From Octopus vulgaris (lineage: Eukaryota), in the NCBI GenBank assembly GCA_951406725.2, contig OX597822.1, forward strand, positions 73,718,001-73,782,000: a stretch of DNA of 64,000 bases. The letters are read 5' to 3'. Below the pieces are notes generated by a model. That model saw only the letters and a program-made list of their open reading frames with translations. It searched no databases and was not told where the DNA came from. Each line of letters starts with the position of its first letter. Positions within the stretch are counted from its first letter, which is position 1. Shown one piece after another: positions 23,995 through 24,548 of the stretch. The position numbers were made by a program, and so were the translations under genes.

Positions 23995-24548
23995 ATGGTT
24001 GGCTAATTCGCAATTAGCCAACCAAGACAGAAATATATACCTTCACTAAAATGAACAAAGTGCACTAACCAGCACCAGTGTTGCTAGAAATAAGAGTCAA
24101 AACTACAGCCACAAAAGCACTATCTTCATGAGTGCCAAGGGAGACAAGCTCCTTACAGTCGCGAATAGAACCAGATCACCGATGATTTCGTAATTTGATG
24201 CTTAACACATCTTAACGCTAATCAGTGGCTCTCACCGTGCCCAGGATTAAACTTATCTCACCTTGTCAGCTTCAAAGATTTCCGTTGAAATCAAACGCTG
24301 ATTTCATAAAACGGTGAAAGTGAAAATTACAAATATTACGGGTGGTTAATTCGCAATTTTGCAACCTAAAGGCAGAAATATATACGTCACTAAAGTGAAC
24401 AAAGGGCAACAATCAGCACGGTACTGCTAGAAATGAGAGTCAAAACACTAAATGCTGGTAGTGGATAGTGCTTCTGTGGCTGTTGAGTTGTTTTGACTCT
24501 TATTTCTAGCAAGACTGGTACTGATTAATGCACTTTGTTCACTTAAAT
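23995..24548. mobile_element. old retrozyme-like tandem repeat (~343-bp unit) with inverted partial arm
   Basis: aattcgcaatt...gtcaaaac recurs at 24005 and 24348 (period 343). An inverted copy lies at 24464-24545 and a degenerate HHR at 24167-24232. Confidence 0.7.
24167..24232 (-). ncRNA. degenerate type I hammerhead ribozyme
   Basis: Minus strand agagcca-CTGATTA-[gatg/catc stem II]-GAAA-tca-tcgg-tga-TC-tggttct. 7-bp stem I, AUC site, G8 replaced by U. Confidence 0.65.

What the first reader, a model, noticed from the sequence alone, without database searches (positions are those of the whole stretch)
23995..24548. Second, older retrozyme-like family (~343-bp unit) with the same tandem-plus-inverted layout
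Seen: a diverged tandem repeat (period 343) with a hammerhead on the minus strand (24167-24232: 7-bp stem I agagcca/tggttct, CTGATTA core, GAAA, near-palindromic stem III atcatcggtgat, AUC site). An inverted partial arm (24464-24545) runs into (TA)n. I see no sequence similarity to the 360-bp unit. Inference: several unrelated retrozyme families of similar size were active at different times, and G8>U is probably decay after insertion.
Basis: partly seen in the sequence, partly recalled or inferred. Interest (0 to 1): 0.7.

Follow-up and report, generated by a model that had tools for sequence, protein, structure and literature searches.

The report
Decayed Penelope-pasted hammerhead retrozyme copy
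This is a worn-out copy of an old, protein-free jumping repeat, scattered widely in this animal genome, whose 344-base unit carries a hammerhead RNA motif predicted to cut itself only in pairs and whose insertion ends suggest it was pasted by a Penelope-type retrotransposon enzyme; the kind is already known.

Summary
Confirmed. The minus strand holds about 1.34 units of a 344-bp repeat with one type I hammerhead (24232-24167), joined to an inverted arm that runs into (TA)n. The family is dispersed (77-86% identical copies; roughly 200 or more with the hammerhead) and old, while the unrelated 360-bp family is 98-100% identical over full units. Across 55 copies the core is C(U/C)GAUGA...GAAA with a 12-nt palindromic stem III. 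G8>U occurs only in this copy, which also has a broken stem II, so it is probably dead. [quoted passage not shown] No coding parent was found, so I read it as a non-autonomous retrozyme mobilised in trans. Folding predicts that the core is locked in a monomer and freed in a dimer. Cleavage, circles and expression are not shown. The scan already reported the two-ended pattern for younger families in this genome. Verdict: new, old member of a known kind; interest low to moderate.

The parts
23992..24335 (-). One full unit (about 344 bp) of the family, ending at the 'long' 3' end
   Evidence: Aligned to the family majority, 10.8% diverged
24336..24453 (-). Preceding partial unit (unit positions about 228-344), giving the partial tandem
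   Evidence: 81% identical to 23990-24103; alignment
24464..24545 (+). Inverted arm (from unit position about 211) ending at the 'short' 3' end, then (TA)n
   Evidence: classed short/long
24159..24241 (-). Type I hammerhead domain: extended stem I, two-part stem II, palindromic stem III; predicted cut after 24174
   Evidence: Alignment A1, pair counts, coordinates
24219..24225 (-). Core box with the private G8>U change at 24220
   Evidence: U in 1 of 55 copies; 93% of summed contig depth in run X1 reads the family letter at 24220
24190..24194 (-). 3' strand of basal stem II, broken by two changes in this copy
   Evidence: differences at 24191 and 24193
24175..24186 (-). Stem III, an exact 12-nt palindrome in the family, one A>G here (shared by a subset of copies)
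24082..24102 (-). 21-nt box downstream of the hammerhead, shared by sister families with different hammerheads
   Evidence: 570 exact genomic matches, control 0; sister families
24549..24670 (.). (TA)n/(CA)n microsatellite, the likely insertion target
   Evidence: 107 of 150 classed family ends are followed by a simple repeat, against 20% background
23587..23991 (-). Separate, younger SINE-like repeat, cut short where it meets the long 3' end of the retrozyme; not part of the element
   Evidence: 95-98% matches genome-wide, 1397 candidates; two other copies run about 100 bp further

Best explanation
This is a decayed copy of a dispersed, non-coding 344-bp hammerhead repeat that was likely mobilised in trans by an endonuclease-bearing Penelope-like element. 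Shown: the family, its age, its hammerhead sequence, its two fixed 3' ends and its TA-rich targets. Inferred steps: (1) a more-than-unit transcript is cut by hammerheads working as a pair through the 12-nt palindromic stem III; (2) the monomer is probably ligated into a circle, where the core is predicted to be locked by pairing with the 5' strand of stem III; (3) a PLE protein nicks both strands of a TA microsatellite and starts reverse transcription at two internal sites about 45 nt apart, one for each strand, which gives a direct arm and an inverted arm with one long and one short end; (4) after insertion this copy decayed (G8>U, broken stem II) and a younger SINE-like element landed at its long end.
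For: Dispersed copies. Core and helices kept: 86.7% of cells paired; 48 cells changed on both sides against 17.6 in shuffles (0 of 500); slid controls 25-39% paired. A short-stem subfamily swaps a stem II pair (C-G to G-C in 7 rows), and sister families carry other palindromes in stem III. Circular fold of the majority unit z=-6.8, window copy z=-3.0. End rule: 13 of 15 scorable two-armed loci discordant (Fisher p=0.010), then 4 of 4 and 4 of 4 in two position-ordered sets with the classes fixed beforehand. The same rule by inspection in a 393-bp sister family (5 of 5) and in the 360-bp family (8 of 8, ends 44 nt apart). An old coding PLE of this genome also shows two 3' ends about 40 nt apart (by inspection). 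PMC8557442 and PMC3846280 describe a 30-40-bp tail at one end of PLE insertions; PMC11167929 ties it to two internal start sites of reverse transcription. EN+ PLEs abound here, some with a 781-aa frame holding RT-like and GIY-YIG domains. Unconstrained cofolding of two majority hammerhead domains gives the double hammerhead (-72.5 against 2 x -31.6 kcal/mol).
Against: No PLE whose terminal repeat resembles the unit was found, so the partner is unnamed. 34 of 57 two-armed loci could not be scored because an end fell outside both classes, and 2 of 23 break the rule; the classes were drawn after seeing the first set. Only 2 of 159 loci hold two tandem hammerhead regions and the longest run is 510 nt, so no multimeric source locus is in hand. 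RNAalifold alone recovered only stems I and II, weakly (-0.21 kcal/mol). Covariation counts are inflated by relatedness and partly rest on 8 rows of one subfamily. The lock is a prediction: 344 of 1024 possible palindromes would also lock above 0.5. In vitro, hammerhead cleavage was not needed for insertion by the anole PLE (PMC11167929), and 8 of 9 Xenopus dimers did not cleave (10.64898/2026.07.22.740005).
Confidence: 0.8

Rival explanations
1. The copies are 5'-truncated terminal repeats (pLTRs) of an old autonomous PLE, with no independent retrozyme life cycle.
For: The layout, tail and targets are those of PLE ends (PMC8557442). At L083 a fragment that looks like a Penelope-type GIY-YIG region (my reading from recalled motifs) lies in sense directly upstream of a unit.
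Against: Sequence upstream of the unit start is the end of the previous unit, not an ORF; 52 of 159 loci run longer than one unit. Flanks shared between loci are SINE-like repeats in both orientations. None of four sets of PLE loci (30, 20 partly overlapping, 29, 29) carries the unit. The element at L083 has its own, different 3' region in its other copies.
Confidence: 0.12
2. The template was a linear multimeric transcript that was never cut or circularised; the hammerhead is a passenger kept for another reason, such as protein binding.
For: Insertions contain the cleavage site intact. PMC11167929 found unprocessed RNA to be the main substrate in vitro. The monomer fold is predicted inactive.
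Against: Catalytic core letters and a palindromic stem III are kept across subfamilies and sister families that differ elsewhere. No long array that could supply multimeric RNA was seen in 159 loci, though old arrays may have collapsed.
Confidence: 0.2
3. A SINE or minisatellite with a chance hammerhead-like motif, with the inversion made by local rearrangement.
For: No Rfam hit. Only 24 of 55 copies have a fully intact core.
Against: Complete type I anatomy in the family, paired changes, and the same two-ended layout at dozens of unlinked loci.
Confidence: 0.03

Closest known systems
Metazoan non-LTR retrozymes (Cervera and de la Pena 2020, PMC7229834: parts 2 and 4 of 6 and passages read; mussel units of 350-390 bp)
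   Same: Non-coding unit of a few hundred bases, GC under 45% (39.8%), type I hammerhead, dispersed, strongly folded as a circle; PLEs are proposed there as the mobiliser.
   Different: Mostly 0.3-1.5 units rather than multimers; old and decayed; 12-nt palindromic stem III; the core is predicted to be self-blocked in the monomer, whereas that paper says most animal retrozyme circles are predicted to leave the ribozyme free. Expression and cleavage not shown here.
Retrozymes as non-autonomous PLE derivatives (Li, Clavereau and Pollet 2026, 10.64898/2026.07.22.740005: parts 1-3 of 5 read; supplements closed)
   Same: Co-occurrence with EN+ PLEs; monomeric 'solo' copies spread over the chromosomes.
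   Different: Their link is sequence homology to pLTRs in Xenopus. Here no homologous pLTR was found and the link is the insertion footprint. The window copy fails their 'active' rule of two consecutive complete hammerheads.
EN+ Penelope-like elements: pLTR, inversion and tail (PMC8557442 passages; PMC3846280 passages; PMC11167929 parts 1-2 of 4; PMC4209133 parts 1-2 of 4)
   Same: Partial tandem, adjacent inverted copy, a tail at one end only, AT-rich or microsatellite targets, sense-strand hammerhead upstream of the 3' ends.
   Different: No RT or GIY-YIG frame; the hammerhead is a full one with a long stem II and a 12-nt stem III, not the minimal PLE form.
Double hammerheads with palindromic stem III (PMC3088659 passages; PMC4209133)
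   Same: Palindromic stem III that can pair between two motifs; U4C is a known natural core variant.
   Different: Here the monomer is predicted not only to have a weak stem III but to trap the core in an alternative helix.
The 360-bp family in the same window (50573-51677) and other retrozyme families noted earlier in this genome
   Same: Same two-armed layout, two fixed ends 44 nt apart, TA targets.
   Different: No sequence similarity; young, with long multimers.

Membership tests
Type I hammerhead ribozyme | Core C3-U4-G5-A6-N7-G8-A9, G12-A13-A14, A15.1-U16.1, H17 | tested here: met
   Met by the family majority and 24 of 55 copies, counting C4 as allowed. The window copy itself fails at G8.
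Type I hammerhead ribozyme | Three helices with stem I open | tested here: met
   helices 81-94% paired; both-sided changes in stems I and II, none in stem III within this alignment
Type I hammerhead ribozyme | Self-cleavage | not testable with these tools
   Folding predictions only
Metazoan non-LTR retrozyme | Non-coding unit of 150-450 bp, low GC, with a type I hammerhead | tested here: met
   344 bp, 39.8% GC; no shared coding frame in 55 loci
Metazoan non-LTR retrozyme | Dispersed genomic copies | tested here: met
Metazoan non-LTR retrozyme | Head-to-tail tandem organisation | tested here: inconclusive
   Partial tandems in 52 of 159 loci; two tandem hammerhead regions in 2 of 159; longest run 510 nt. 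Fits the monomer class of Li et al.
'Active' retrozyme in the sense of Li et al. 2026 | [quoted passage not shown] | tested here: not met
   The window has one hammerhead, with G8>U. Not filed as active.
Metazoan non-LTR retrozyme | Expressed as linear and circular monomeric RNA | not testable with these tools
   Only contigs of runs guessed to be RNA were available; see Tried and rejected
Metazoan non-LTR retrozyme | No LTR, primer-binding site or polypurine tract | not tested
   No LTR-type layout seen; PBS and PPT were not searched
Autonomous EN+ PLE (pLTR) | RT plus GIY-YIG frame joined to the terminal repeat | tested here: not met
   tblastn with 7 PLE protein pieces hit 6 of 111 and 4 of 55 family loci, with no repeated join upstream of the unit; PLE loci lack the unit. 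The queries cover one related PLE group only.
PLE-type insertion footprint | Partial tandem with adjacent inverted copy | tested here: met
   57 loci with an upstream inverted piece (one counted twice)
PLE-type insertion footprint | Tail of about 30-40 bp at one end only | tested here: met
   21 of 23 scorable loci; tail about 45 nt, slightly longer than described
PLE-type insertion footprint | AT-rich or microsatellite target | tested here: met
   107 of 150 ends against 20% background

The most novel reading that the evidence does not exclude
This family and its sisters use a built-in RNA switch: the catalytic core mimics the 3' strand of the palindromic stem III, so a monomer or circle traps its own core while two units free each other. 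That would supply, for these elements, the missing mechanism that keeps animal retrozyme circles from re-cutting. The shared 21-nt box would be the site at which a PLE protein recognises a whole group of otherwise diverging retrozymes.
Probability: 0.3. Interest if true: 0.55.

Novelty: new member of a known kind. Interest (0 to 1): 0.3.

Why it matters
It adds an old retrozyme family and shows that the PLE-type two-ended footprint, seen by this scan in young families, also holds in an old, unrelated one, so PLE mobilisation of such repeats has recurred over a long time in this genome. The predicted monomer-off, dimer-on fold bears on a question left open in PMC7229834 (how animal retrozyme circles avoid re-cleavage) and is cheap to test. 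The copy in the window is itself a fossil.

Tried and rejected
Rfam at gathering score: 0 hits. Tandem Repeats Finder did not list the unit among the rows shown. A 60-letter degenerate hammerhead pattern found no exact copy. One recalled Pfam accession was not in the library. Search for a coding parent: four sets of PLE loci, none carrying the unit beyond 21-42-bp hits at E about 0.01-0.03. Two single joins between family units and PLE coding fragments (L185, L083) did not recur in 29 and 29 PLE loci or 19 sister loci; I treat them as single chimeras or nested insertions. RNA: no RNA holder listed. Contigs of runs guessed to be RNA gave only short, scattered pieces, some running into microsatellites; this is no evidence either way. 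The idea that C4 arose only to strengthen the lock: it does raise the penalty for the active fold from 3.5 to 5.2 kcal/mol, but the 360-bp family has C4 without that mimicry, so it is not adopted. The idea that a linear cut dimer caps insertions at about 1.5 units: the longest run is 510 nt, but L067, L072 and the sister locus L269/L270 span two hammerheads, so it is rejected as a strict rule. Literature searches listed no paper describing this family; most subscription papers, Repbase and the preprint's supplements were not visible, so absence from print is not established. Look-ups of earlier scan findings by this sequence and near this place returned nothing.

Full report
OBSERVATION. The region holds three direct-repeat blocks spaced 343, 344 and 343 bp and an inverted arm. 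Self-BLAST shows that only 114 bp are duplicated (81%) and that the inverted arm 24464-24544 is 85% identical. Read on the minus strand, the insertion is a partial unit (24453-24336) plus one full unit (24335-23992), preceded by an oppositely oriented arm that runs into (TA)n. Rfam gave no hit. The unit has no similarity to the 360-bp unit (score reached by 52-65% of shuffles).

FAMILY. The window lies in a 2.8-Gb animal assembly; earlier scan notes call it a cephalopod, which I did not test. The unit has 900 first-look candidates, of which 40 were scored, with full-length matches at 76-86%. A 19-nt hammerhead motif has 52 exact matches and a 21-nt downstream box has 570, with 0 in the controls. 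Eight of the 30 best BLAST copies carry the exact 19-mer (comparing), which suggests about 200 or more hammerhead-bearing copies; this is a rough inference and includes a sister subfamily. Some box matches belong to sister families and a few to an unrelated repeat. Fifty-five near-full copies differ from their majority by a median 10.8%; pairwise identity has a median of 81% and a best pair of 94%. Full units of the 360-bp family are 98-100% identical and form long arrays. 'Older' is therefore supported. A contig across 23950-24391 with 8 differences is present in two public runs of one study.

HAMMERHEAD. Alignment A1 has 55 hammerhead regions chosen from 68 found; I left out 13 with large gaps or indels. 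G8 is G in 46, A in 7, gapped in 1 and U only in the window copy. Position 4 is U in 35 and C in 16. The core is fully intact in 24, and stem III is the exact 12-nt palindrome in 25. U4C is a known natural variant (PMC3088659, passage). The named structure is 86.7% paired, with 48 both-sided changes against 17.6 in shuffles, while slid controls are 25-39% paired. Relatedness inflates these numbers, the count of pairs with a both-sided change was reached by 42 of 500 shuffles, and RNAalifold alone found only a weak consensus of stems I and II. A subfamily with a short stem II swaps one pair, and sister families carry different palindromes in stem III. The window copy also has two changes that break basal stem II, so I infer it is inactive. 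As a circle, the majority unit folds at z=-6.8 and the window copy at z=-3.0 (60 shuffles each).

PREDICTED SWITCH. In the monomer the core pairs with the 5' strand of stem III instead of staying open: probability above 0.5 in 21 of 24 intact-core copies, the two lowest of these near 0.5, and in 23 of 30 pattern-found motifs, a set that includes a few chance matches; none favoured the stem III hairpin. Forcing the active fold in the majority circle costs 3.5 kcal/mol. Two domains cofolded without constraint adopt the double hammerhead, -72.5 against 2 x -31.6 kcal/mol. Among 1024 possible 12-nt palindromes the native one ranks in the top 6 for locking, but 344 lock above 0.5, so some locking is common. 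This is computation only. PMC7229834 (Discussion) states that most animal retrozyme circles are predicted to leave the ribozyme free and must be blocked by other means.

INSERTION FOOTPRINT. The 3' ends cluster at two places, unit positions 292-312 (short) and 338-358 (long), which cover 12% of the unit. In the two sets taken in genome order, 16 of 27 and 27 of 51 direct arms end there. Where an inverted arm is present, both outer ends are 3' ends. In the first set 15 of 31 two-armed loci could be scored, and 13 had one long and one short end (Fisher p=0.010). The classes were drawn from that set. Applied unchanged, they gave 4 of 4 (of 9 loci) and 4 of 4 (of 17 loci, one a duplicate). In all, 21 of 23, with 34 loci unscored. 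The window copy is short on the inverted arm and long on the direct arm. By inspection a 393-bp sister family shows 5 of 5 (one further two-armed locus unscorable) and the 360-bp family 8 of 8 among 14 loci, with ends 44 nt apart. Simple repeats follow 107 of 150 classed ends, against 20% of random window positions. PMC8557442 and PMC3846280 (passages) describe PLE insertions as partial tandems with an adjacent inverted copy and a 30-40-bp tail at one end. PMC11167929 (parts 1-2) shows that a PLE protein cuts both strands of AT-rich DNA and starts reverse transcription at two internal sites that bound the tail.

PARTNER. The genome has many C-terminal GIY-YIG elements (6136 candidates, 150 scored), some with a 781-aa frame that matches GIY-YIG over its cut-off and RVT_1 just under it. 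None of four sets of PLE loci carries the unit, and PLE coding fragments near family loci show no repeated join. Two single joins exist. At L185 an inverted arm and 1.3 sister units run without a gap into a PLE 3' end; at L083 a truncated endonuclease-like fragment precedes a unit. Neither recurred. The family is best read as non-autonomous with an unidentified, probably extinct partner; my protein queries covered one PLE group only.

MECHANISM AND RIVALS. Shown: family, age, hammerhead sequence, two ends, targets, decay of this copy. Inferred: paired cleavage, circularisation, PLE-primed copying from both strands. Insertions longer than one unit (52 of 159 loci) need a circle or a multimeric transcript. 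Only 2 of 159 loci hold two hammerhead regions, which favours a circle unless old arrays have collapsed. The main rivals are truncated ends of a coding PLE and an uncut linear template.

NOVELTY. The kind is in print (PMC7229834; 10.64898/2026.07.22.740005). Five literature searches listed no description of this family, within the library's limits. The scan had not noted this sequence but had reported the two-ended PLE footprint for several younger families of this genome; I found the pattern before those look-ups and checked it for the 360-bp family myself. Verdict: a new, old member of a known kind, interest 0.3.

Noticed in passing
window 23998-24024: The copy's 3' end is a perfect 12-bp inverted repeat around 3 bases, whereas the family has an imperfect one; this looks like quasi-palindrome correction by template switching (inference).
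   Followed up: partly
window 23587-23991: Young SINE-like repeat of about 520 bp with a (TGTA)n tail on the minus strand, cut short by about 100 bp where it meets the retrozyme; probably inserted into the microsatellite that once flanked the long end.
   Followed up: partly
window 50573-51677: 360-bp family: plus-strand hammerhead with a C4 core and an 8-nt palindromic stem III; arms end at two fixed points 44 nt apart.
   Followed up: yes
window 62740-63387: Back-to-back pair of an element with a tRNA-like stretch, an (ATT)n run and a minimal hammerhead-like motif near its outer end (by eye); matches the description in earlier finding e1-8796959.
   Followed up: no
L155, L156, L157 (3' regions): Young coding PLE with a 781-aa frame; its 3' repeat has a hammerhead-like motif with a U3-A8 core some tens of bases before the TA-flanked end (by eye).
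   Followed up: partly
L231-L252, about 2200-2260 in ORF orientation: An old coding PLE family has a conserved hammerhead-like motif whose core reads G at position 3 and C at position 8, the swapped pair known from a partly active double mutant in PMC11167929; stem II is weak, so the reading is uncertain.
   Followed up: no
L185 (reverse strand 3455-4900): Inverted arm plus 1.3 units of a 393-bp sister retrozyme joined without a gap to the 3' end of a PLE: possible template-switch chimera, one case.
   Followed up: partly
L038, L048, L067, L069-L071, L074; L095, L107, L114; L185, L261-L279; L208, L223: At least four sister families share the 21-nt box and 3' region but have different stem II lengths and different stem III palindromes.
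   Followed up: partly
L103, L121, L202: The 21-nt box also occurs in a seemingly unrelated repeat with internal repeats of about 107 bp.
   Followed up: no
L158 5272-5317; L315: Weak matches (78% over 46 bp; 67% over 134 bp) to the 360-bp unit near PLE loci, probably diverged relatives inserted nearby.
   Followed up: no
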